Positions 3,033 to 16,742 of a stretch of DNA of 26,582 bases are shown here, piece after piece. The stretch's first letter is position 1. Each line of letters begins with the position of its first letter. This DNA is from an uncultured Oscillospiraceae bacterium (lineage in GTDB: Bacteria > Bacillota > Clostridia > Oscillospirales > Oscillospiraceae). The notes under the pieces were generated by a model. The model was given only the letters and a program-made list of their open reading frames with translations, was not told where the DNA came from and ran no database searches. A program made the position numbers and the translations under genes. Location: the NCBI GenBank assembly GCA_944383195.1, contig CALWOP010000177.1:122390-148971 (forward strand), written 5' to 3'.

Positions 3033-4784
3033 TTGGAATATTCATTAATTAGTCCACGAAATTAGGATTATACAGCGTTAGAATAGGTATTGATAAATAG
3101 AGGTATTAAATATGAAGATATACCTCATTATCTAACTGTATCAGAAAAAGATAATTTATCTCCTTTACTTCTTAATAATATTGAACGCGCTGTTTAGCTA
3201 ATTATTAAGCATATATTAAAAGACGATTCTTATATCTATATCTAGGTAGATAGCGATTGTGATGGATATACTTCTGCGGCTTTATTGCTAAACTATCTTC
3301 ATGCACAATTCCCTTCTGCAATAAACAAGTTTATTTATGGTTTTCATCAAGGTAAAATACATGGTATAAAACCAGAATTAATCCCCGATAAAGTTTCACT
3401 TGTTATTGCACCAGATTCTAGCTCTAATGATTATCAAGAGCATGAAGAATTAGTGAAAAAGGGAATTGATGTATTAGTTATTGACCATCACTTAGCTGAT
3501 AAAGTTTCTGAATATGCCTGTGTAGTGAATAATTAGTTATGTGATTATCCTACTAAGTCGCTATCTGGAGTTGGAGTTGTCTATAAGCTATGTCAATATA
3601 TGGATACTGCTTGCGGGACCGCCTATGCGGACGATTTTCTAGATATTGTCGGCGTAGGTCTCGTTGGAGATATGATGGATATTAGAGACTTTGAGACCCA
3701 TTATCTTGTACAGTAGGGGCTATAGAGGTCACATCTCCGCAATCCATTTATAAAAGGCATGGCTGAAAAGAATGTGTATTAGTTAGGTCGAGGAGATTTA
3801 ACTCCTATTGGAGTAGCGTTCTACATTGTTCCTCTTGTTAATGCAATTACTCGCGTAGGTACTCAAGATGAAAAACAAATTTTGTTTGAAAGTATGCTTG
3901 AATGGAAGGCATATGATCTTATTCCATCTACGAAAAGAGGCTGTAAAGGACAAGAAGAAACTAGATTAGAACAAGCATTGAGAGTTTGTACTAATGTAAA
4001 AAATCGTTAGACTAGAACTAGAGATGCCGAAGTTGAATAGATAGAAACTATTATTCAAGAAAATAATTTATTAGAGCATAAACTTTTAATTATTAAATTA
4101 GAAGATATGCAAGTAGATAGAGGTATTACTGGTTTAATAGCTAATGAGTTAATGAGTGAATATAAGCGTCCTGTTGTTCTTTTATCTAAAACAGTACATG
4201 AGGGACAAGATGCATGGGAAGGTTCAGCTAGAGGATATGAAAAATCTAAGATGAATGATTTTAGATAGTTTGTAAGAAATTCTGGCTTAGTCTTTCTTGC
4301 CGAAGGGCACGCTAACGCTTTTGGTTTTGGTATTTATGATAAAGATTTTGATGATTTTATTTCTTGGTCTGATGAACAATTAAAAGAGATAGAGTTTTCA
4401 CCAAGCTATAAAGTAGATTTTATTTACTCGGCGTCAAATGTTAGCTCTAAAGATATATTAGAATTAGGAGATGCCAAATATCTTTGGGGTTAGAATATTG
4501 ACGAACCACTGATCGCAGTGGAAAATGTTGCAGTAACAAATGATATGCTTAGCCTTATGGCTAAAGATAGGAATCCTACTTTGAAGATTCAATTACCTAA
4601 TGGAGTTACTTGCATCAAGTTTAAATCAAGCGAAGAGGAGCTAGATAATTTATCTAGTGAATTAGGTTGCGTGAGTATAAATTTGATTGGTAAGCCAGAA
4701 GTAAATAGATACTTCGGTAGTGTGACACCACAAATTATTATTACAGATTACGAAATTATAAGTAGATAGAAGTATTACTTTTAA
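3033..4784 (+). CDS. recJ: RecJ-like DHH/DHHA1 phosphoesterase (ssDNA exonuclease) carrying 13 in-frame TAG codons. Start is a putative TTG.
   Basis: Frame 3 is continuous from 3033 to TAA at 4782 if TAG is sense. Motifs span the TAGs: VLINRGI, ERAVQLI...VDSDCDGYTSAALL (DHH motif I-II), VLVIDHH (DHH), and EGHANAFGF (DHHA1 GGGH-like). AAGGAGAG lies 12 nt upstream of TTG 3033. No in-frame ATG is available, so the exact start is uncertain. Confidence 0.72.
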
Positions 4785-4823
4785 TGATTGCGCAACCTCT
4801 TACTAAAGGAGGAAACAATCACG

Positions 4824-5591
4824 ATGAAACGTTTTATAAGTATTATACTAAGTTTAATCATTCTATTATCTATGGTTTGTAGTTGTAATAGTCCATTTAT
4901 TGCTATTGCTTCTGCATATTCAGTACAGTATAATGATACTACGAGTTATACCTATGATGATTTAGATATATTGATTGAGCTTATTGCGGAACAAATCTCT
5001 AATATGAACGCCGCACATCAAATGGCCGACGCTGCTAGACAGTTAGGCTATTCAGAAGACCATGATATAATTAAACTTGCTGTGGAAGAATATAATAATG
5101 CTAATGAGATAAGGCAAGATTATCAGCGAGTATACGATGAACTCATGGAACATTGGCATCAAAAGGAAGAAGAGTACCCAGTAGCTACATATATATGGAG
5201 TTATTTTAAGGAATTAGGCTATAGTAATCAAGTTTGTGCTGGAATACTTGGTAATATAATGGCTGAAGTTGGTGGTAATACGCTAGACATACAATACGAT
5301 ATATATGGTTCTTCATATTATGGTATGTGTCAATGGAATAAAGCGTATTCTGAGGTTTGGGGAGCCTCACTAGAAGAGCAATGCAATTATTTAGAAGATA
5401 CTATTGAATATGAATTCGATACATTTGGTTATGCCTATAAGAGAGGGTTTGACTATAATGATTTTCTAAATATGACAAGTATAACTGATGCTGCTCTTGC
5501 ATTTGCTAAATGCTATGAAAGATGCGCATCTGGAAGTTATACAGTAAGACAAAATAATGCTATAACCGCATATAATTATTTTGTAAGTTAA
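4824..5591 (+). CDS. Secreted peptidoglycan-hydrolase-like protein (phage tail lysozyme family-like). No TAG.
   Basis: AAAGGAGGAA lies 8 nt before the ATG. The N-terminus looks like a signal peptide (MKRFISIILSLIILLSMVCSCNSPFIAIASA|YS, an AxA cleavage site). The AGILGNIMAEVGG motif resembles the GNxxxE(S) core of phage lysozyme-like domains. Stop codon is TAA. Confidence 0.5.
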   Translation: MKRFISIILSLIILLSMVCSCNSPFIAIASAYSVQYNDTTSYTYDDLDILIELIAEQISNMNAAHQMADAARQLGYSEDHDIIKLAVEEYNNANEIRQDYQRVYDELMEHWHQKEEEYPVATYIWSYFKELGYSNQVCAGILGNIMAEVGGNTLDIQYDIYGSSYYGMCQWNKAYSEVWGASLEEQCNYLEDTIEYEFDTFGYAYKRGFDYNDFLNMTSITDAALAFAKCYERCASGSYTVRQNNAITAYNYFVS

Positions 5592-8190: not shown

Positions 8191-11100
8191 ATGGGTTATT
8201 TTAATAATCATAGCCATACTATGTATAGTAATTTAAGACTACTTGACTGTATTAATCGCCCAGAAGAATTGATAGATAAAGCAATTGAACTTGGTCTTAC
8301 TGGTATAGGGATTACCGATCATGAATCGTTAAGCGCTCACATGGCAGTTAATAAATATGCAAAGAAAATTAAAGAATCTAATCCAGATTTTGTTATTGCC
8401 CTTGGTAATGAGATTTATTTAACTGATACGAGGGATTTAGGACAAAGATATTATCACTTTATTCTTCTTGCAAAAGATGAAATTGGTTATAGAGGATTAA
8501 AAGAATTATCATCTATTGCATGGATGAATGGATATTATGATCGTAGAATGGAAAGAGTTCCTTTGCTTAAATCTGAATTAAAAGATGTAATGCAAAGATT
8601 TAAGGGACATATTATAGGAACTACAGCTTGTATTGGCGGAGAACTTGGCAGCACAATTCTTAATTTAGAAAACTGTGAGAAGGTAAATGATATTACTAAC
8701 GCGCAGCGTTATCATAAGCAGATAGTTGATTTTATGACTTTCTGTATAGATGTATTCGGTCATGATGATTTCTATATTGAGTGCGCTCCCGCCGCTTATG
8801 AAGATCAAATTATTGCTAATAAGAGAATGTTAAAAATCTCTGAGGCTTTTGATGTAAATATGTGTATTGGGACTGATGCTCATTATTTAACAAAAGAAGA
8901 TAGGTATGTTCATAAGGCATATCTTAATTCTAAAGGCGGAGAACGAGAAGTTGATAGTTTTTATGAATTTACATATCTAATGACCGAAGATGAAACTAGA
9001 GAATTACTCCGTTTGAGCTTTGAAGAAGATATTATTGATTGGATTTTTAAATGCTCAAACGAGATTAAAGATAAAATACAATTCTACTCATTGGAAAGAC
9101 ATCAATCTATTCCAGAAGTAGAAGTTACAGATTATCCTGCTATAAGTTGGTGGGGCGTAAATAATGATATTGCAGATGAAATGGCAAAATATCCAATTTT
9201 AAAATCATTATTTACTTCTGATAATATTCAAGAAAGATATTGGATTAATGAATGTTGGAAAGCATTAGAAGATAAAGGGATTGATTGGATAAATGATCCT
9301 AGATACCCAGAACGGCTCGAAGAAGAAGCAAGAGTAAAGAGAGTAATCGGCGAAAAACTACAAACCTGTATGTTTGCATATCCGAATACTCTAAAACACT
9401 ACGTTGATTTATTCTGGAATTGCGGAAGTACGGTAGGTGCGGGGCGAGGCTCGGCTTGTGCAGCTTTAAATCATTATTTGTTGGGAATTACTCAACTAGA
9501 TCCAATTGAATGGGATCTTCCTTTCTGGCGTTATATTAATGATGAAAGAACTGAATTAGGAGATATTGATCTCGATCTTGCCCCTTCAAAAATTCAGAAA
9601 ATCTTTTCTGAGATTCGCAAAGAGCGTGGAGAATTAGGATTAGTACAAGTATGTACTTTTGGTACGGAAGGAACTAAATCTGCTATTTTGACCGCTTGTA
9701 GAGGTTATCGTTCAGAAGAATATCCAGATGGAATTGACGTTGACATGGCTCAATATATGAGTTCTTTAATTCCTCAAGAACGTGGATTTTTATGGCCTAT
9801 TGAAGATGTTATTAATGGTAATCCAGAAAAAGGACGCAAGCCTGTTACAGTATTTGTAAACACTGTAAATCAATATCCTGGGCTTCTTGATATTATTACA
9901 AGGATTCAAGGTCTAGTAAATAAACGTTCAAGCCATGCTTCTGGAGTTATTTTATTTGATGAAAACATCTTTGATACAGCAGCAGTAATGAGGACTCCTA
10001 AAGGAGCTTTAATTACCCAATGGGATTTGCATGACCAAGAAGCTGCTGGTTCTGTAAAATATGATTTCCTGCTTACCGCAGTTCAAGACATTATTATTCA
10101 AACTATTTCTCTATTACAAGAAGATGGAGTTATTGAGAAAGATTTAACATTACGAGAAGTCTATAATAAATACCTCCACCCATCTGTCCTCCCGCAAAAT
10201 GATAAGAAAATGTGGGATGCTCTTGCTAATGGCGATGTTCTTGGATGTTTCCAGTTTGATTCTAGTGTTGGTGCACAAGCAGCTAAAAAGATTAAACCTC
10301 AGAATCCACACGAAATGGCGGATGCTAACGGATTAATGCGTCTAATGACTCAAGAAAAAGGTGCAGAAACTCCAATGGAGAAATATGTCCGCTTCAAGAA
10401 TAATATTTCTCTTTGGTACAAAGAAATGGATCAACAGGGTTTAACTAAAGAAGAGCAAAAAATTCTTGAACCTCATTTCTTACGTTCTTATGGCGTTCCT
10501 CCTAGTCAAGAACAAATGATGACCATGCTTCAAGACCCAAATATTTGCGGATTTACGCTCGCTGAGGCGAACGCCGCAAGAAAAATAGTTGGTAAGAAGC
10601 AAATGAATAAAATTCCAGAGTTAAGAGAAAAAGTTCTTAATTCTGCAAAATCTTCTGCTCTTGGTCATTATGTATGGAATTATGGTATCGGACCTCAAAT
10701 GGGGTATAGTTTCTCGATTATCCATGCTCTTGCTTATAGTTTTATCGGTATGCAAACCTTATATTTAGCAACACATTTTAATCCTGTTTATTGGAATACA
10801 GCATATCTGATTGTAAATAGTGGAGCTATTGATGAAGAAGAAGGAGAACAATCTGACTATACCAAGATTGCTAAAGCCATTGGAGAAATCCGTAATGCAG
10901 GTATAAAAGTATCTCTAGTAGATATTAATCACTCTGACTTTGGATTTAAGCCAGATGTGGAGAATAATCAAATCTTGTTTGGATTAAAAGGACTAGCTAA
11001 TGTTAATAACGATTTTATTAAAGATATTATTGATAATAGACCTTATGTATCTCTGCTTGATTTTCTCAATAGAGTGCATCCAAATAAGCAAGCTATGATT

Positions 11101-12099
11101 TCCCTTATTAAAGGTGGGGCCTTTGATCAATTTTCTTCTCGTATGGAAGCTATGATTGAATATATTTGGCTGACTTGCGATAAGAAAAAAAGATTAACCC
11201 TTCAAAATATGCCTGGATTAATTCGTTATGGATTATTGCCAGAAGATACAGAAGAGCAAGTTATGGCTCGTAGGATATACGAGTTTAATAGATATTTAAA
11301 AGCAGAATGTAAATGTGGTTTTAAACCAGATTATTTCATTTTAGATGAAAGGGCAATTAACTTTCTTACCGAGATAGATAAAGAATCTATGGTTGCATAT
11401 GAAAATAATAGATTCTTCCTTAATATGAAAGATTGGGATAAACAAATCTATCAACCATGGATGGATGTATTTCGAGCATGGATTTCCGCAAATAAAGAAG
11501 AAATACTTGATAATTTAAATACTGTTATCTTTATGGAAGATTGGAATAAATATGCTTCTGGGAATATTTCTTCTTGGGAAATGGAATCTTTATGTTTCTA
11601 TTACCATGACCATGAACTTGCAAATATAAACAATAGTAAGTATGGTTTTGTAGACTTCTTTAGTTTACCAGAAGAGCCTCAAGTAGAAAAGGTGTTTAAG
11701 CGTGGAGCATCTTTAATTCCTATTTATAAACTTCATAAGATTTGCGGGACCTGTATCGCAAAAAATAAGACAAAAAGTACGGTTTATCTTCTTACTACAA
11801 CAGGAGTAGTAGCAGTAAAATTCAGACAAGAATACTTTGCATTGTTTGATAAGCAGACTTTTCAAAGAAATGCTGATGGAACTAAGAAGGTTATTGAGAA
11901 GTCTTGGTTTAATCGAGGTAATATGATAGTTGTTCAAGGTATTCGCAGAGGCGATGAATTTGTTACTAAAAAGTATACAAGTTCTGGAGGACATCAACTC
12001 TATCATATTGATGAGATTGTAAACGGAACTGATTTAATTCTTCGTAGTGAGAGAAAACAAGGAGAAGAAGAAGATGAAGATAGTAGCATTGATGGGTGA
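8191..12099 (+). CDS. dnaE: DNA polymerase III alpha subunit (DnaE-type, PHP domain), 1302 aa. No TAG.
   Basis: N-terminal PHP motif HSHTMYSNLRLLD...GITDHESL. TAGGAGAG RBS. Stop codon is TGA. Confidence 0.85.
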   Translation: MGYFNNHSHTMYSNLRLLDCINRPEELIDKAIELGLTGIGITDHESLSAHMAVNKYAKKIKESNPDFVIALGNEIYLTDTRDLGQRYYHFILLAKDEIGYRGLKELSSIAWMNGYYDRRMERVPLLKSELKDVMQRFKGHIIGTTACIGGELGSTILNLENCEKVNDITNAQRYHKQIVDFMTFCIDVFGHDDFYIECAPAAYEDQIIANKRMLKISEAFDVNMCIGTDAHYLTKEDRYVHKAYLNSKGGEREVDSFYEFTYLMTEDETRELLRLSFEEDIIDWIFKCSNEIKDKIQFYSLERHQSIPEVEVTDYPAISWWGVNNDIADEMAKYPILKSLFTSDNIQERYWINECWKALEDKGIDWINDPRYPERLEEEARVKRVIGEKLQTCMFAYPNTLKHYVDLFWNCGSTVGAGRGSACAALNHYLLGITQLDPIEWDLPFWRYINDERTELGDIDLDLAPSKIQKIFSEIRKERGELGLVQVCTFGTEGTKSAILTACRGYRSEEYPDGIDVDMAQYMSSLIPQERGFLWPIEDVINGNPEKGRKPVTVFVNTVNQYPGLLDIITRIQGLVNKRSSHASGVILFDENIFDTAAVMRTPKGALITQWDLHDQEAAGSVKYDFLLTAVQDIIIQTISLLQEDGVIEKDLTLREVYNKYLHPSVLPQNDKKMWDALANGDVLGCFQFDSSVGAQAAKKIKPQNPHEMADANGLMRLMTQEKGAETPMEKYVRFKNNISLWYKEMDQQGLTKEEQKILEPHFLRSYGVPPSQEQMMTMLQDPNICGFTLAEANAARKIVGKKQMNKIPELREKVLNSAKSSALGHYVWNYGIGPQMGYSFSIIHALAYSFIGMQTLYLATHFNPVYWNTAYLIVNSGAIDEEEGEQSDYTKIAKAIGEIRNAGIKVSLVDINHSDFGFKPDVENNQILFGLKGLANVNNDFIKDIIDNRPYVSLLDFLNRVHPNKQAMISLIKGGAFDQFSSRMEAMIEYIWLTCDKKKRLTLQNMPGLIRYGLLPEDTEEQVMARRIYEFNRYLKAECKCGFKPDYFILDERAINFLTEIDKESMVAYENNRFFLNMKDWDKQIYQPWMDVFRAWISANKEEILDNLNTVIFMEDWNKYASGNISSWEMESLCFYYHDHELANINNSKYGFVDFFSLPEEPQVEKVFKRGASLIPIYKLHKICGTCIAKNKTKSTVYLLTTTGVVAVKFRQEYFALFDKQTFQRNADGTKKVIEKSWFNRGNMIVVQGIRRGDEFVTKKYTSSGGHQLYHIDEIVNGTDLILRSERKQGEEEDEDSSIDG

Positions 12100-12687: not shown

Positions 12688-13941
12688 ATGCTTCAAGTAA
12701 GAAAGAGAAATGGTATCTTAGTACCATTTGATAAAGAGCGTATTATTAATGCTATTAATAAGGCTTTTATTGAAGTTGATGGAGCTTTATATGAAGATGA
12801 TACTGCAAATGATATTGCAGATGAAATTAAATATGCAGTAAAAACTTCTGATGAAGTGGTTTCTGTTGAAAAAATTCAAGATATGGTAGAAGACTATCTT
12901 ATGAAATCTGAGCGCAGAGATGTTGCTAAAGAATATATAAGATATAGATATAAAAGAGAAATTGCGCGAAAAGGTTAGGATGATTTTATTAAGGCCTTTT
13001 CCGCAAAAATTCAAGGATCTGATATTGAAAACCAAAATGCTAATGTAGATGAAATGTCTTTTGGCGGTAGAGTTGGAGCTGCATCAGATCTACAAATGAA
13101 GAAGTATGCTCTTGATTATCTTGTTTCTAGTAAGTCAAGAGCTAATCATGAGAATAATGAAATCTATATTCATGATTTAAATGCTTATGCAGTAGGTATG
13201 CACAATTGTCTATCTATTCCTTTTGATGATTTGCTGGCAAAAGGATTTAATACTAGACAAACTGATGTGCGTCCTGCTGGTTCTATAAATACTGCTTTTT
13301 AGCTTGTTGCAGTTATTTTCCAGCTACAAAGCCTGCAACAATTTGGCGGGGTATCTGCTACTCACCTTGATTGGACTATGGTTCCATATGTAAGAAAGAG
13401 TTTCTATAAGCATTGGAATGATGGTATTCGTTATATTGGTCAAGAGATTATTCCAGATGAAATAACAGATATATTTAAGGGAAATAGAGAATTGCCTATT
13501 GATCAATACCCAAGAGATAATGAATACAGAAAGATATATAGATATGCTATAGAAATGACAGAAAAAGAAACTCATCAAGCTGTTGAAGGAATGTATCATA
13601 ATTTAAATACCCTTCAATCTCGTTCTGGAAATCAATTACCATTTACTTCTATTAACTACGGTACTTGCGCTCTTCCAGAAGGACGTATGGTTATTAAATC
13701 GTTGCTTGAAGTTTCCATAGAAGGATTAGGTAAATTACATAAAACTTCTATCTTCCCATGTGGCATCTTCCAATGTATGAAAGGCGTAAATAGAGCGCCG
13801 GGTGATCCAAACTATGATTTGTTTAGACTTGCTTTAAAGTCTACTGCTTTAAGATTATATCCTAACTATGCTAATGTTGATTGGACTGGTAATGCGGGAT
13901 ATGATAAAAATGACCCTAAGACTTATTTCAGTACCATGGGT
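12688..13941 (+). CDS. nrdD: Anaerobic ribonucleoside-triphosphate reductase NrdD, exon 1 (ATP-cone plus catalytic N-terminal part). Two in-frame TAG codons.
   Basis: ATP-cone N-terminus MLQVRKRNGILVPFDKERIINAI. The frame is continuous through the TAGs at 12976 and 13300. The exon ends ...YFSTMG at a U, followed by a group I intron (see the intron feature). Confidence 0.8.
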
Positions 13942-15078
13942 AAGCGTAAACTACAGCCCATGTAAAACCTTTTGAACCTCGCCCGAGGGTGTTTGCGGAA
14001 GTCCGATTAAAGATCGGTTTAGCAAAATCCGCAAGCTAACGGTTAGGTCCTATATGGATGAGACCGTGCTAAATTTCTAATAGAGTAAAAAATTTTGGTT
14101 AAAACTTTATAATGAACTTTGAATGGTTTTTATCTATAATAGAAGGTGCAGCACCTTTAATTGTTATTCAAAAGGAGAATATTCAATGTTCATCTATAAA
14201 ATTAGTAACACAGTAAATGATAAAGTGTATATTGGTTAGACGATTCGTCCAATAGAAGATCGTTTTAATAGACATATAAACGATGCTATGAACAATATTC
14301 TTGATACGCATTTTGCTAGAGCAATTAGACTTTATGGTCCAGATAAATTCTATATAGAATTATTGGATACTGCTAATAGTCAAGAAGAGCTTACTCAAAA
14401 AGAACGAGATTATATTCAATTATATAACTCTATTAAAAATGGATATAATGAAACTGATGCAATAAGCAAATGCGGAGGCAATACCTATAAGAATAAAACA
14501 AAAGAAGAAATGGACGTTATAAAAGAGAAAATTAGGTAGACCAAGCTTGGTGGGAAAAATCCCCATGCTGCTAAAGTAAAATGCAAGAATATTGAAACTG
14601 ATAAAGAATTATTTTTTGATAGTATGGCTGAATGTGCAGCATATTTTGGTAAAGATAATCATCAATTTATTTCTAGGAGATGCAGAGGAGAAGTAAAGAG
14701 TCTCTATGAAGGTAAATGGAAATTTGCATATCAAGATCAAGATTATAATATTTTTACCTCTAGACCAAACGCTAAAAGAACTAAACGTGTCGAAGTTTTA
14801 AATTTAGAAACTCAAGAAAAAGTAGTTTTTAATACAATGAAAGATGTTGATAGATATTGCGGCTTTGGCTTAGATTATACTAGTAAAAAATTTAAATCAA
14901 CTGGAGCTAAAGAGATTTACAGAAATCAATATAAACTTACTCTATTAGATTAAATGTGTATCGACTATCCCTGATGAGTGTAAGGGAGTAGGACTGGAGA
15001 TAGGCACCAGTTCGAAGCGGAAGGCTATCGAAAGATAGAATATATAGTCAGTGCTGATGGCAACATCAGATAATAATG
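13942..15078 (+). mobile_element. Group I self-splicing intron interrupting nrdD. It carries a GIY-YIG homing endonuclease ORF.
   Basis: The 5' exon ends CATGGGU at 13941. The intron's internal guide sequence GCCCAUG (13956-13962) pairs with it to form P1, with the U.G wobble at the splice site. The adjacent CUACA (13951-13955) pairs with the 3' exon start UGUAG (15079-15083) to form P10. The intron ends in G at 15078. The spliced junction reads ...STMG|CRTANG..., restoring a continuous NrdD frame. Structured GC-richer RNA flanks the HEG ORF on both sides. Confidence 0.75.
14186..14953 (+). CDS. Intron-encoded GIY-YIG homing endonuclease (I-TevI/II-like) carrying 2 in-frame TAG codons.
   Basis: AAAGGAGAA RBS. 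The GIY-YIG core reads FIYKISNTVNDKVYIG(TAG)T...RFNRH, which restores the canonical YIGQT if TAG is Gln. The C-terminal NUMOD-like region reads GGKNPHAAKVKCKNIETDKELFFDSMAECAAYFG. Stop codon is TAA. Confidence 0.75.
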
Positions 15079-16086
15079 TGTAGAACCGCAAATGGATTCG
15101 ACATTAATGGCTTAGGACAACAAAAAGATGGAAGAGGAAATATCTGTCCTGTAACTATTATCATGCCAACAATAGCTATGGAAGCTGTTACTCTAAGCGA
15201 CAATGACGATTGGAATCAAATTAAAGATTTGTCTCAAGATGAAAGAATAAAGATTGGCGTAGAAAGATTTATGGAACTTTTGGATACAAAAATCTATGAA
15301 GCTAAAGATATGCTGCTTGAAAGATTTGAATATATTTGCGCGCAGCCAGCTGAATCTGCTAAATTCATGTATGAGAATGGATTAATGGCTGGATATGATG
15401 GGATTTCTACTAGAAGCGCATTACAGCATGGTACTTTAAGCCTTGGACAAATTGGGCTCGCGGAAACACTTCAGATCTTGATTGGTTGTGATCATACTAC
15501 TAAAGAAGGTATGGAATTAGCAAAGAGAATTGAGAGTTTATTCAAGCAAAGATGCGCTGAATTTAAAAATCAGTATAAGCTTAACTTCGGGGTATATTAT
15601 ACTCCGGCCGAAAATCTTTGCTACACTTCTCTTGAAAAATTCAAGAAAAAGTATGGAGTAATTCCTAACGTAAGTGATAGAGAGTACTTTACTAATTCTA
15701 TCCACGTTCCCGTATGGAAACAAATCTCTCCATTTGATAAGATTGATATTGAATCTCAATTAACAGGATATTCTTCTGCTGGTTGTATTACTTATGTAGA
15801 GCTTGATAGTGGTGTGAAGAATAATATTGATGCTCTTGAAATATTAGTAAATTATGCCATGGATAAGGACATCCCGTATTTCGCTATTAATGTCCCTAAT
15901 GATACCTGTCTTGAATGTGGATATATGAATGAATTTAATGACCATTGCCCAGAATGTGGTAGTGATCATATTCAACAACTTCGTAGAGTAACAGGCTATC
16001 TTACTGGCAATTATAAGACAGCTTTTAATAAGGGCAAGATTGCTGAAACAGACGATAGAGTTAAACATGTGGGGTATATGGAATGA
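15079..16086 (+). CDS. nrdD: NrdD exon 2 (C-terminal part with zinc-ribbon and glycyl-radical motif).
   Basis: CxxC...CxxC zinc motif: CLECGYMNEFNDHCPECG. Glycyl radical motif RVTGYL. Stop codon is TGA at 16084-16086. Confidence 0.8.
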   Translation, partial: CRTANGFDINGLGQQKDGRGNICPVTIIMPTIAMEAVTLSDNDDWNQIKDLSQDERIKIGVERFMELLDTKIYEAKDMLLERFEYICAQPAESAKFMYENGLMAGYDGISTRSALQHGTLSLGQIGLAETLQILIGCDHTTKEGMELAKRIESLFKQRCAEFKNQYKLNFGVYYTPAENLCYTSLEKFKKKYGVIPNVSDREYFTNSIHVPVWKQISPFDKIDIESQLTGYSSAGCITYVELDSGVKNNIDALEILVNYAMDKDIPYFAINVPNDTCLECGYMNEFNDHCPECGSDHIQQLRRVTGYLTGNYKTAFNKGKIAETDDRVKHVGYME

Positions 16087-16742
16087 ATAAACAGCAAAAA
16101 GTTAGAGATAGTATTCTAAAAATGAATTAGGATACTTATAAAGCTAAAGATAAATATTTTGAAAAAATAACTAAAGTAATTATTTAGTGTGTAAATAATT
16201 ATTCTGCCTTAACATGGGATAAAGGATTATAGGAAGTTTTTGAACTTTTTATAGATTCTTTAACTGAAACTTATACCATTACAATGCGTGAATTAAGAAA
16301 TATATATTCTAAATTGGAAGATTTTAATATCGACGATATTTCTTAGCTTACTTATTAGGAAGATGGAAAAACATTATATGATAGAATAAAAAAGTATTGG
16401 GATCAGGCTGAATCTGATATAAAAGGTGAATTAGACTATGATTTAGTAAAAGCTTATTTGATTGATAGATATGATATGCTTTTAGAAAATGAAACTAAAA
16501 TTATATAGAGTCAAGTAGAAAAAAATAAGATAGCCCCAGTGGCTACTTTGTTAGTAATTGAATCAGAAGGCCATGATTGTAGATGGGGATGTTCAAATTA
16601 TGAGGGAGAATATTCTCCAGAAGATCCAGTTCCTCTCCCTCCTTATCATCCTAACTGTCAATGTATTTTTTATTATGTTGAGACAGATAATGATGATGAT
16701 ATTGTAGATTTAGATTTAGAAATTGAAGATATTAAGTGGTGA
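16083..16742 (+). CDS. Hypothetical Cys/His-motif protein (about 220 aa) carrying 6 in-frame TAG codons. The C-terminus resembles the MuF-type PPxHPNC(R)C motif.
   Basis: Its ATG overlaps the nrdD stop (ATGA). Frame 3 is continuous through 6 TAGs to TGA at 16740. The C-terminus reads GHDCRWGCSNYEGEYSPEDPVPLPPYHPNCQC. Confidence 0.5.

What the first reader, a model, noticed from the sequence alone, without database searches (positions are those of the whole stretch)
13942..15078. Group I intron with an embedded GIY-YIG HEG splitting nrdD, with P1 and P10 pairings readable from the sequence
NrdD is split into 12688..13941 and 15079..16086 by 1137 nt. The 5' exon ends in U. The intron sequence GCCCAUG (13956-62) is complementary to the exon end CAUGGGU, forming P1 with the canonical U.G wobble at the splice site. 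The adjacent CUACA is complementary to the first five 3' exon bases UGUAG, forming P10. The last intron base is G. Splicing yields ...YFSTMG-CRTANG... in frame. The intron ORF is a GIY-YIG HEG whose own catalytic motif contains a recoded TAG. The mobile element has therefore co-evolved with the phage's code, or was acquired from a relative that uses the same code. This parallels the T4 nrdD intron carrying I-TevII, but in an unrelated, recoded phage.
Basis: partly seen in the sequence, partly recalled or inferred. Interest (0 to 1): 0.7.

Follow-up and report, generated by a model that had tools for sequence, protein, structure and literature searches.

The report
Self-splicing intron in phage nrdD
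The 1137-base interruption of the phage's anaerobic ribonucleotide reductase gene is a genuine self-splicing group I intron carrying a homing-endonuclease gene; it is one copy of a large, mostly unannotated gut-phage intron family related to the classic T4 nrdD intron, so it is real but of a well-known kind.

Summary
nrdD (12688-13941 and 15079-16086) is interrupted by a 1137-nt group I intron (13942-15078).

- **Junction:** the spliced protein aligns without a gap to solved NrdD across ...STMG|CRT..., the thiyl-cysteine loop. Uninterrupted phage nrdD alleles carry the same junction.
- **Family:** the intron belongs to a family of at least 120 viral contigs, all at this site. 89 distinct copies were analysed, 32 of them ORF-less.
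- **Covariation:** it supports P1, P10, P3-P9, P7.1 and P7.2. On 25 sequences 91.5% of cells pair, against 35-46% when partners are slid, and 43 pairs change on both sides.
- **Ribozyme:** it is a sister of the T4 nrdD (sunY) IA2 intron. It sits about 120 codons downstream of T4's site and carries its ORF in P6a rather than P9.1.
- **Endonuclease:** it is I-TevI-like, not I-TevII-like.
- **Rfam:** Intron_gpI misses the window because the ORF splits the core and two extra hairpins lie between P3 and P4. An ORF-less relative scores 40.8 bits.
- **Recoding:** both TAG codons in the endonuclease gene align to Gln codons in a homologue, and TAG read-through runs through the whole window.

Recoded intron endonucleases are already published. 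This is a new member of a known kind, of modest interest.

The parts
12688..13941 (+). nrdD exon 1 (ATP-cone plus the N-terminal part of NrdD), with in-frame TAG codons at 12976-78 and 13300-02
   Evidence: Pfam ATP-cone and NRDD match on the spliced protein. TAG 13300 aligns to Gln in L002 and L004.
13935..13941 (+). P1, exon strand CAUGGGU; the 5' splice site follows U13941
   Evidence: Pairs with 13956-62. The outer pair shows all four Watson-Crick types in 89 introns. Helix 1 is 98.3% paired.
13942..15078 (+). Group I (IA2, sunY-like) intron, 1137 nt
13951..13962 (+). Internal guide sequence: CUACA (P10 strand, 13951-55) followed by GCCCAUG (P1 strand, 13956-62)
   Evidence: covariation.
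13968..13974 (+). P3 5' strand CCUUUUG, pairing with CGGAAGG at 15018-24
   Evidence: The first pair is UA 48 and CG 34 with no mismatch in 82 introns. Helix 3 is 100% paired.
13977..13988 (+). Extra hairpin X (CCUC-GCCC-GAGG), absent from T4 sunY. Its loop G13981-C13983 covaries with the L7.2 loop G15003-C15005.
   Evidence: Helix 4 is 100% paired, with 2 pairs changed on both sides. Loop-loop pairing. Absence in T4.
13992..14035 (+). Extra hairpin Y (13992-99 with 14028-35; inner stem 14003-07 with 14013-17). Its length varies across the family.
   Evidence: The basal pairs covary (helix 5 is 100% paired, with CG/AU/UA/GU/GC types). Length ranges from 10 to 230 nt in the family.
14039..14067 (+). 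P4 (14039-44 with 14062-67), P5 (14047-50 with 14056-59) and an AG/GA internal loop (J4/5 and J5/4)
   Evidence: Helix 9 is 98.8% paired, with 4 pairs changed on both sides.
14068..14088 (+). P6 (GC 14068-69 with GU 14956-57) and the P6a 5' strand (14076-88)
   Evidence: Helix 10 is 100% paired (CG 20, GC 5). The flanks of the ORF loop form a duplex with a median of -17.8 kcal/mol in 61 introns, against -4.2 for mismatched partners.
14172..14177 (+). Shine-Dalgarno-like AAGGAG, 8 nt before the endonuclease ATG
   Evidence: Read directly from the sequence.
14186..14953 (+). GIY-YIG homing-endonuclease gene (255 codons) in the P6a loop. In-frame TAG codons at 14237-39 and 14537-39. Its last codons overlap the P6a 3' strand.
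   Evidence: Pfam PF01541, E 6.1e-9. PHROG homing-endonuclease families. I-TevI catalytic domain 1mk0, E 1.2e-5. Both TAG positions are CAA in L002.
14937..14957 (+). P6a 3' strand (14937-49) and P6 3' strand (14956-57)
14962..14967 (+). P7 5' strand CGACUA, pairing with UAGUC at 15045-49 and G15051 (A15050 bulged). It has the same sequence as P7 of T4 sunY.
   Evidence: Helix 12 is 99.3% paired. Alignment with T4.
14968..15013 (+). P7.1 (14968-72 with 14983-87) and P7.2 (14991-97 with 15007-13; loop 14998-15006). These helices are the IA2 signature.
   Evidence: Helices 13-15. P7.1 is nearly identical to that of T4 sunY. The motif CGACTATCCC...GGGAGTAGG occurs in at least 120 viral contigs.
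15018..15024 (+). P3 3' strand CGGAAGG
15025..15038 (+). P8 (CUAUC-GAAA-GAUAG)
   Evidence: Helix 16 is 96.8% paired, with 4 pairs changed on both sides.
15045..15051 (+). P7 3' strand UAGUC(A)G
15054..15069 (+). P9 (CUGAUG-GCAA-CAUCAG) with a GNRA loop
   Evidence: Helix 17 is 100% paired, with 5 pairs changed on both sides.
15078..15078 (+). Terminal G (omega G); the 3' splice site follows it
   Evidence: Every family copy with an identifiable P7 3' strand has G immediately before the Cys codon (no 'noend' cases).
15079..16086 (+). nrdD exon 2. It starts with the thiyl-radical Cys codon (UGU); UGUAG 15079-83 is the P10 exon strand. It includes the glycyl-radical domain.

Best explanation
A mobile group I intron of subgroup IA2, sister to the T4 nrdD (sunY) intron, interrupts the phage's class III ribonucleotide reductase gene. 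It lies between the Gly and Cys codons of the ...TMG|CRT... active-site loop.

Splicing (inferred from the structure, not shown):
- The pre-mRNA folds into P1 with the U13941-G13956 wobble, the P3/P7 pseudoknot, P4-P6, P7.1/P7.2, P8 and P9.
- An exogenous guanosine bound in P7 attacks after U13941.
- The guide sequence then aligns exon 2 through P10, and the freed exon-1 3' OH attacks after G15078.
- The product is an intact nrdD mRNA.

Mobility (inferred): the intron carries an I-TevI-like GIY-YIG endonuclease gene in the P6a terminal loop. In mixed infections the enzyme would cut intron-less nrdD alleles near this site. The intron would then be copied in by recombinational repair, which is homing.

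Recoding: this phage reads TAG as a sense codon, most likely Gln. The endonuclease gene has acquired two TAG codons, so full-length enzyme can be made only while TAG is being read through. This may delay or limit endonuclease production.

Status of each step:
- Shown here: the exon junction, the structure and its covariation, homology to sunY, endonuclease family membership, and the TAG/Gln correspondence.
- Inferred: self-splicing activity, homing and its target site, and any regulatory role of TAG.
For: - Junction: there is a gap-free alignment to solved NrdD across MG|CR. An uninterrupted phage allele aligns over 600 nt with 0 gaps. At least 120 viral contigs carry the exact ligated-junction sequence.
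- Structure: on 25 family sequences 91.5% of cells pair against 35-46% when slid. 43 pairs change on both sides. The covariation score is 0.297 against 0.110 for shuffles (0 of 500 reach it).
- P1 and P3 contingency counts in 89 introns show compensatory changes.
- Homology to T4 sunY: there are long identical blocks in the P1 loop and guide sequence, in J1/3, in P7 to P7.1, and in J8/7 to P7'.
- ORF-less copies of 240-355 nt exist at the same site, including an exact ORF-less twin of an ORF-bearing ribozyme. Such copies have no reason to persist other than splicing.
- The last three intron bases are ATG in 44 copies, ACG in 42 and GTG in 3. Exon 2 therefore has no conserved start codon of its own.
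- Endonuclease: Pfam GIY-YIG is above its cut-off. The alignment to the I-TevI catalytic domain includes the IY, YIG, R..RH and NGYN motifs.
- TAG: both endonuclease TAG codons are CAA in L002, and nrdD TAG 13300 is Gln in L002 and L004. TAG read-through raises ORF coverage across the window from 6025 to 8889 codons.
- About half of 57 homologous intron ORFs carry 1-5 in-frame TAG codons.
Against: - Rfam Intron_gpI gives no hit in the window even at E<=10. None of 11 family loci reaches the gathering score for this intron. The best ORF-less relative scores 40.8 bits against a cut-off of 50.
- There is no RNA or biochemical evidence of splicing or cleavage.
- No suppressor tRNA lies in the window, so the identity of the amino acid at TAG rests on alignment only. 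One of the four TAG positions aligns to Asn, and another aligns to Ala in the second homologue.
- Two hairpins between P3 and J3/4 are atypical for group I introns.
Confidence: 0.93

Rival explanations
1. A split gene without splicing. An endonuclease cassette broke nrdD into two separately translated polypeptides that assemble, as with NrdA-a and NrdA-b of Aeromonas phage Aeh1 split by mobE.
For: The exon-1 frame runs on to a stop at 13963-65 (ORF 13378-13965). An ATG at 15076-78 opens an ORF through exon 2. The annotated relative TR-TP2 lists two CDS.
Against: - A complete group I core with covariation flanks the ORF.
- ORF-less 240-355 nt copies occupy the same site.
- The ATG at the intron end is replaced by ACG in 42 of 89 copies.
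- There is no Shine-Dalgarno sequence before 15076.
- The break would separate Gly and Cys of the catalytic loop.
Confidence: 0.03
2. A decayed intron. The ribozyme and/or the endonuclease gene in this copy is a non-functional remnant, and the TAG codons are ordinary nonsense mutations.
For: The endonuclease ORF has two in-frame TAG codons, and Rfam finds nothing in the window.
Against: - Every helix of the family consensus is intact in the window.
- The only in-frame stops are TAG. There are no TAA or TGA stops or frameshifts over 255 codons, which are 74% identical to L002.
- TAG is read through in nrdD and in most other genes of the window.
- A 93-98% identical contig (L244) keeps the same two TAG codons.
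- A dead ribozyme would inactivate nrdD at its catalytic cysteine.
Confidence: 0.04

Closest known systems
T4 nrdD (sunY) group I intron, subgroup IA2, carrying I-TevII
   Same: - Same host gene.
- The ribozyme is homologous. There is no P2. The P1-loop, guide-sequence and J1/3 blocks are near-identical (A(A/G)CGUAA...GCYCAUGUAAAA). P7 to P7.1 is near-identical (CGACUAUCCCUGAUGARUGUAAGGGAGUAGG). J8/7 to P7' (GAAGAUAUAGUC) and a GNRA-capped P9 also match.
- Both carry a GIY-YIG-class endonuclease gene in a peripheral loop.
   Different: - The insertion site differs: T4's is at ...AYE|YEVNTL..., about 120 codons upstream of MG|CR.
- The ORF is in P9.1 in T4 and in P6a here.
- The endonucleases show no detectable sequence similarity.
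- This family has two extra hairpins between P3 and J3/4 and a longer, conserved L7.2 loop.
- It lacks P9.1 and P9.2.
- Rfam scores T4 at 105 bits but this family at 41 bits or less.
T4 td intron with I-TevI
   Same: - The endonuclease gene is looped out of P6a.
- The endonuclease catalytic domain aligns to I-TevI (1mk0/1ln0, E about 1e-5).
- It has IA2 architecture with P7.1 and P7.2. The td architecture and ORF position are from my own knowledge of the td literature, not tested here.
   Different: The host gene is different (thymidylate synthase). td has a P2. No similarity to I-TevI was detected beyond residue 92 in the solved-structure search.
Recoded group I intron endonuclease of TGA-recoded 'Agate' phages (Borges et al., 10.1101/2021.08.26.457843)
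   Same: An intron-encoded homing endonuclease in an early gene of a stop-codon-recoded gut phage contains in-frame reassigned stop codons. The authors propose that this delays endonuclease production.
   Different: Here the reassigned codon is TAG (to Gln) rather than TGA (to Trp). Host gene, intron family and phage lineage are not shown to be the same.
Split nrdD genes in other phages (Lactococcus phage 949; Jug phages; Thomasclavelia phages TR-TP1 and TR-TP2)
   Same: nrdD is the RNR gene most often split in phages (PMC3653736). Gut Jug phages have intron-fragmented nrdD with metatranscriptomic evidence of splicing (PMC12880540). TR-TP1/TP2 NrdD is 68% identical to the window's and is split in the same loop.
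   Different: The TR-TP2 intron is a different ribozyme with an HNH ORF, inserted 4 nt upstream (AT|GGGTTGT). Whether the phage 949 and Jug introns use the MG|CR site was not checked.

Membership tests
Group I intron | P1 helix between the 5' exon end and an internal guide sequence, with a U-G wobble at the 5' splice site | tested here: met
   13935-41 pairs with 13956-62, with U13941 opposite G13956. The outer pair shows CG, GC, AU and UA types in 89 introns. U-G is present in 24 of 25 sequences.
Group I intron | Terminal G (omega G) at the 3' splice site, and P10 between the guide sequence and the 3' exon | tested here: met
   G15078. P10 is 13951-55 with 15079-83, 90.8% paired in 25 sequences. 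No family copy lacks G before the Cys codon.
Group I intron | Conserved core: P3/P7 pseudoknot, P4-P6 domain and P8, in the canonical order | tested here: met
   All helices are located, with 92-100% paired cells and compensatory changes. P3 covariation is UA 48 and CG 34 with no mismatch.
Group I intron | Match to Rfam RF00028 at or above the gathering score of 50 bits | tested here: not met
   There is no hit in the window. ORF-less relative L123 scores 40.8 bits, E 2.9e-9. The control, T4 sunY, scores 105.3 bits. The shortfall is explained by the ORF in P6a and the X/Y insertion.
Group I intron | Guanosine-dependent self-splicing | not testable with these tools
   This needs in-vitro transcription with GTP labelling, or RT-PCR.
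Subgroup IA2 (T4 sunY/td type) | P7.1 and P7.2 hairpins between the P7 5' strand and the P3 3' strand | tested here: met
   P7.1 is 14968-87 and P7.2 is 14991-15013. P7.1 is nearly identical to that of T4 sunY.
GIY-YIG homing endonuclease (I-TevI-like) | N-terminal GIY-YIG catalytic domain with the conserved Tyr, Tyr, Arg, Glu and Asn residues | tested here: met
   PF01541 scores 36.5 bits against a cut-off of 22.6. The alignment to I-TevI 1mk0 matches IY, YIG, R..RH and NGYN. The Glu position is inferred from that alignment.
GIY-YIG homing endonuclease (I-TevI-like) | Site-specific cleavage of the intron-less allele | not testable with these tools
   Intron-less alleles with the exact junction exist. 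Cleavage needs an enzyme assay.
TAG-to-Gln recoded phage (genetic code 15-like) | In-frame TAG at positions where homologues have Gln, across many genes | tested here: met
   Endonuclease TAG positions: 2 of 2 are CAA in L002, and 1 of 2 in L004. nrdD TAG 13300 is Gln in both homologues, while TAG 12976 is Asn in L002. 21 of 29 long ORFs in the window contain in-frame TAG.
TAG-to-Gln recoded phage (genetic code 15-like) | Phage-encoded suppressor tRNA(CUA) or release-factor manipulation | tested here: inconclusive
   No tRNA gene lies in the 26.6-kb window. The rest of the roughly 148-kb genome was not examined.

The most novel reading that the evidence does not exclude
The family to which this intron belongs may be a structurally distinct offshoot of the sunY-type IA2 introns. 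It has a two-hairpin domain inserted between P3 and J3/4. The first hairpin loop (G13981-C13983) forms a covariation-supported long-range pairing with the enlarged L7.2 loop (G15003-C15005). Such a peripheral clamp has not, to my knowledge, been described for group I introns.

In addition, the in-frame TAG codons in its endonuclease gene may act as a timing gate. They are shared by about half of the family copies and recur at the YIG-Gln position. They would restrict homing-endonuclease synthesis to the phase of infection in which TAG is decoded.
Probability: 0.4. Interest if true: 0.55.

Novelty: new member of a known kind. Interest (0 to 1): 0.35.

Why it matters
For annotation, this nrdD is one functional gene, not two fragments plus a stray ORF. 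The same applies to at least 120 viral contigs, and to cultured Thomasclavelia phages whose records list split CDS.

The result also shows a blind spot of Rfam RF00028. A whole family of sunY-like introns falls below its threshold because of an inserted peripheral domain and ORFs in P6a.

For biology, it adds a TAG-recoded example to the published TGA case of intron endonucleases that carry reassigned stop codons. The same intron and endonuclease lineage lives in contexts both with and without in-frame TAG. That makes it a convenient natural system for asking how mobile elements adapt to a host's genetic code, and whether recoding times endonuclease expression.

Tried and rejected
- **Rfam, window:** scans of the whole window, the intron region and each half found no Intron_gpI hit. 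I judged this uninformative after the T4 control and the ORF-less relative.
- **First core model:** I initially placed P4/P5 in 13991-14036, because it matches the classical P/Q consensus by eye. I rejected this because L004 has only a simple tetraloop hairpin there. That element is the variable peripheral hairpin Y.
- **Alternative P3:** UCCGC 14028-32 with GCGGA 15017-21 was rejected, because the 5' partner lies in the non-conserved hairpin Y.
- **P3 strand versus RBS:** a 9-bp pairing of the P3 5' strand region (13968-76) with the endonuclease RBS region (14168-76) appeared in the MFE fold. It is not conserved in L002 or L004 and is weaker in L244. It was not pursued as a regulatory switch.
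- **Nucleotide search:** megablast of the locus against GenBank phages found no match.
- **Promoter scan:** sigma-70 promoter-like sites around the endonuclease gene were no more frequent than in shuffles.
- **I-TevII:** a BLASTP comparison found no similarity to the window's endonuclease.
- **Intein and group II intron readings:** not pursued. The insert is not in frame with nrdD, and it has the group I core.
Full report
**Observation**

- nrdD reads 12688-13941 and 15079-16086.
- Exon 1 ends CAUGGGU (U13941).
- GCCCAUG at 13956-62 is its complement, with a U-G wobble at the splice site.
- The adjacent CUACA (13951-55) complements the first five bases of exon 2 (UGUAG).
- The last intron base is G15078.

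The spliced protein has 753 residues and carries ATP-cone, NRDD and glycine-radical domains. It aligns end to end with Prevotella copri NrdD 8p23 (E 1.6e-123), with no gap across ...STMG|CRT.... That segment is the loop holding the thiyl-radical cysteine, a role I take from established knowledge of class III RNRs. Uninterrupted phage nrdD genes with exactly the predicted ligated sequence are abundant: at least 120 viral contigs in a capped scan. The closest one, L350, aligns across the junction over 600 nt at 78.5% identity with zero gaps.

**The Rfam test**

It finds nothing in the window, neither at the gathering score nor at E<=10, on the whole region or on either half. I ran two controls.
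- The archetypal T4 nrdD (sunY) intron has a contiguous core and its ORF downstream in P9.1. It scores 105.3 bits.
- An ORF-less member of the window's own intron family, L123 (260 nt), scores 40.8 bits. That is E 2.9e-9 but below the 50-bit cut-off.

None of 11 family loci reaches the cut-off for this intron. The negative result therefore reflects the model and this intron's architecture, not the absence of a group I core.

**The family**

The endonuclease protein led to three homologous loci. Two core motifs then led to at least 120 viral contigs each, in capped scans. They also led to 25 genome contigs, mostly Firmicutes MAGs.
- One of these, L244, comes from a 147.8-kb contig binned as an uncultured Eubacterium. 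It is 93-98% identical to the window, so it is the same phage species.
- In the fetched loci I found 104 complete copies, 89 of them distinct.
- Every copy is inserted after ...ATGGGT and before TG(T/C), that is, at Met-Gly|Cys of NrdD.
- 35 of the 104 complete copies (32 distinct sequences) are ORF-less, at 240-355 nt. The rest are 742-1158 nt.
- The extra sequence is almost always in one loop, P6a.
- L104, L105 and L141 carry the exact ORF-less twin of the ribozyme that holds an ORF in L058 and L175.

**Structure**

Comparison with T4 sunY and the family alignments gives the following model.

| Element | Window coordinates |
|---|---|
| P1 | 13935-41 with 13956-62 |
| P10 | 13951-55 with 15079-83 |
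| P3 | 13968-74 with 15018-24 |
| Hairpin X | 13977-88 |
| Hairpin Y | 13992-14035 |
| P4 | 14039-44 with 14062-67 |
| P5 | 14047-50 with 14056-59 |
| P6 | 14068-69 with 14956-57 |
| P6a | 14076-88 with 14937-49 |
| P7 | 14962-67 with 15045-49 and 15051 |
| P7.1 | 14968-72 with 14983-87 |
| P7.2 | 14991-97 with 15007-13 |
| P8 | 15025-29 with 15034-38 |
| P9 | 15054-59 with 15064-69 (GCAA loop) |
| Omega G | 15078 |

I tested the model on a 25-sequence alignment (window plus ORF-trimmed and natural ORF-less members).
- 91.5% of cells form standard pairs, against 35-46% when partners are slid.
- 43 of 90 pairs change on both sides.
- The covariation score is 0.297 against 0.110 for shuffles (0 of 500 reach it).
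- The only weak helix is P6a (51% paired), and that is an alignment artefact.

I tested P6a directly. The flanks of the ORF loop form a duplex with a median of -17.8 kcal/mol in 61 introns, against -4.2 for mismatched partners. In all 89 introns the outer P1 pair involves the wobble base of the Thr codon. Its counts are CG 39, GC 22, AU 18, UA 4, GU/UG 3 and mismatch 3. The first P3 pair is UA 48 and CG 34 with no mismatch.

**Relation to T4**

The ribozyme is homologous to the T4 nrdD intron, not merely analogous.
- Both lack P2.
- Both share long, nearly identical blocks in the P1 loop and guide sequence, in J1/3, in P7 to P7.1, and in J8/7 to P7'.

The elements differ in several ways.
- T4's intron sits at ...AYE|YEVNTL..., about 120 codons upstream.
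- T4's ORF (I-TevII) is in P9.1, whereas here the ORF is in P6a.
- The two endonucleases show no similarity.
- The window's enzyme instead aligns to the I-TevI catalytic domain (1mk0, E 1.2e-5). The IY, YIG, R..RH and NGYN motifs match.
- It also hits phage homing-endonuclease PHROGs.

So a sunY-type ribozyme occupies a second site in the same gene and has been colonised independently by an I-TevI-type endonuclease gene.

**Unusual features**

Hairpins X and Y lie between the P3 5' strand and the UAA of J3/4. T4 sunY has nothing at that position. Both hairpins are supported by compensatory changes (helices 4 and 5). Y varies from 10 to 230 nt across the family.

The X loop covaries with the enlarged, sequence-conserved L7.2 loop.
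- Three pairs (G13981-C15005, C13982-G15004, C13983-G15003) are paired in all 25 sequences.
- The pair types are GC/AU/UA/GU at one position and UA/CG at another.
- Across the four pairs tested, pairing is 84%, against 10-43% when slid.
- 83 of 86 introns contain the exact 3-nt complement.

I read this as a long-range tertiary pairing that ties the inserted domain to P7.2. This is an inference from covariation. A 4-nt loop making three pairs is sterically tight, so the X stem may breathe.

**Recoding**

Reading TAG through raises ORF coverage of the window from 6025 to 8889 codons. 21 of 29 long ORFs contain in-frame TAG and none contains in-frame TAA or TGA. The DnaE-like polymerase has no TAG in 1302 codons.
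- The two endonuclease TAG codons (14237, 14537) are both CAA in L002. In L004 they are CAA and GCG.
- nrdD TAG 13300 is Gln in both relatives, while TAG 12976 is Asn in L002.
- L244 keeps both endonuclease TAG codons.
- Of 57 homologous intron ORFs, about half carry 1-5 in-frame TAG codons, eight of them at the same YIG-Gln position. The others carry none.

The endonuclease gene has therefore adapted to the recoded context. The idea is not new, however. Borges et al. (10.1101/2021.08.26.457843) reported a preferentially recoded group I intron endonuclease in TGA-recoded Agate phages. They proposed that in-frame stops delay its production. No suppressor tRNA lies in this window.

**Rival explanations**

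- A split gene translated as two polypeptides is very unlikely. The ribozyme core is conserved by covariation. ORF-less copies occupy the same site. The ATG that opens the exon-2 ORF in the window is ACG in 42 of 89 copies.
- A decayed remnant is also unlikely. All helices are intact. The only in-frame stops in the endonuclease ORF are TAG. A dead ribozyme would inactivate nrdD at its catalytic cysteine.

**Context and verdict**

Published surveys already show that nrdD is the RNR gene most often split in phages (PMC3653736). Gut jumbo phages have intron-fragmented nrdD with metatranscriptomic support for splicing (PMC12880540). The closest cultured relatives are Thomasclavelia phages TR-TP1 and TR-TP2 (NrdD 68% identical). 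Their nrdD is split in the same loop by a different intron with an HNH ORF, 4 nt upstream, and the records annotate it only as separate CDS.

The finding is correct and well supported. It is a new member of a known kind. Two modest added points are a large family that Rfam misses, and a covariation-supported peripheral pairing that may be undescribed.

Noticed in passing
window 13981-13983 and 15003-15005: The loop of the extra hairpin X covaries with the L7.2 loop. Three pairs are always paired in 25 sequences, with compensatory changes, and 83 of 86 family introns have the exact complement. This suggests a long-range tertiary pairing that is absent from T4 sunY.
   Followed up: partly
window 16083-16742: A 219-codon ORF with six in-frame TAG codons lies between nrdD and nrdG. 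It is absent from the otherwise 93-98% identical contig L244, where nrdD abuts nrdG. It has no Pfam hit. A C-terminal PPYHPNCQC motif gives weak PHROG 'head morphogenesis' matches. It looks like a recent insertion.
   Followed up: partly
L001 (Thomasclavelia phage TR-TP2, PQ571310) about 4250-5127: nrdD of the closest cultured phage is split by a different, unannotated group I intron (Rfam 27.9 bits, E 8e-5) that carries an HNH endonuclease ORF. It is inserted 4 nt upstream of the window's site (AT|GGGTTGT). The Cys loop appears to be an intron hot spot.
   Followed up: partly
L038 6369-6595: A second group I intron that Rfam does detect (85.3 bits) lies about 650-880 nt upstream of the family intron in the same locus. 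It presumably lies in nrdD exon 1, so that gene would carry at least two introns.
   Followed up: no
window 14142-14158: A terminator-like hairpin (GAAGGUG-CAG-CACCUUU followed by a U-rich tail) lies inside the intron just upstream of the endonuclease RBS. It is preceded by CTATAATA. The element is conserved, with changes, in L002 and L004. It may regulate endonuclease expression.
   Followed up: no
L104, L105, L141 versus L058, L175: The same ribozyme sequence exists with a 253-codon GIY-YIG ORF (1062 nt) and without it (330 nt). This is a natural example of gain or loss of an endonuclease gene in the P6a loop.
   Followed up: partly
L026, L155, L196 (hairpin Y): A few family members carry an additional insert of about 216-230 nt in hairpin Y, which may encode a small ORF, as well as the P6a insert.
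   Followed up: no
window 8191-12099: The DnaE-like polymerase gene (1302 codons) contains no TAG codon, while neighbouring genes contain up to eight. This fits the published idea that early replication genes of recoded phages avoid the reassigned codon.
   Followed up: no
window 13968-13976 and 14168-14176: The P3 5' strand region (CCUUUUGAA) is perfectly complementary to the endonuclease RBS region (UUCAAAAGG) and pairs with it in the MFE fold. The pairing is weaker in L244 and absent in L002 and L004, so it is probably incidental.
   Followed up: yes
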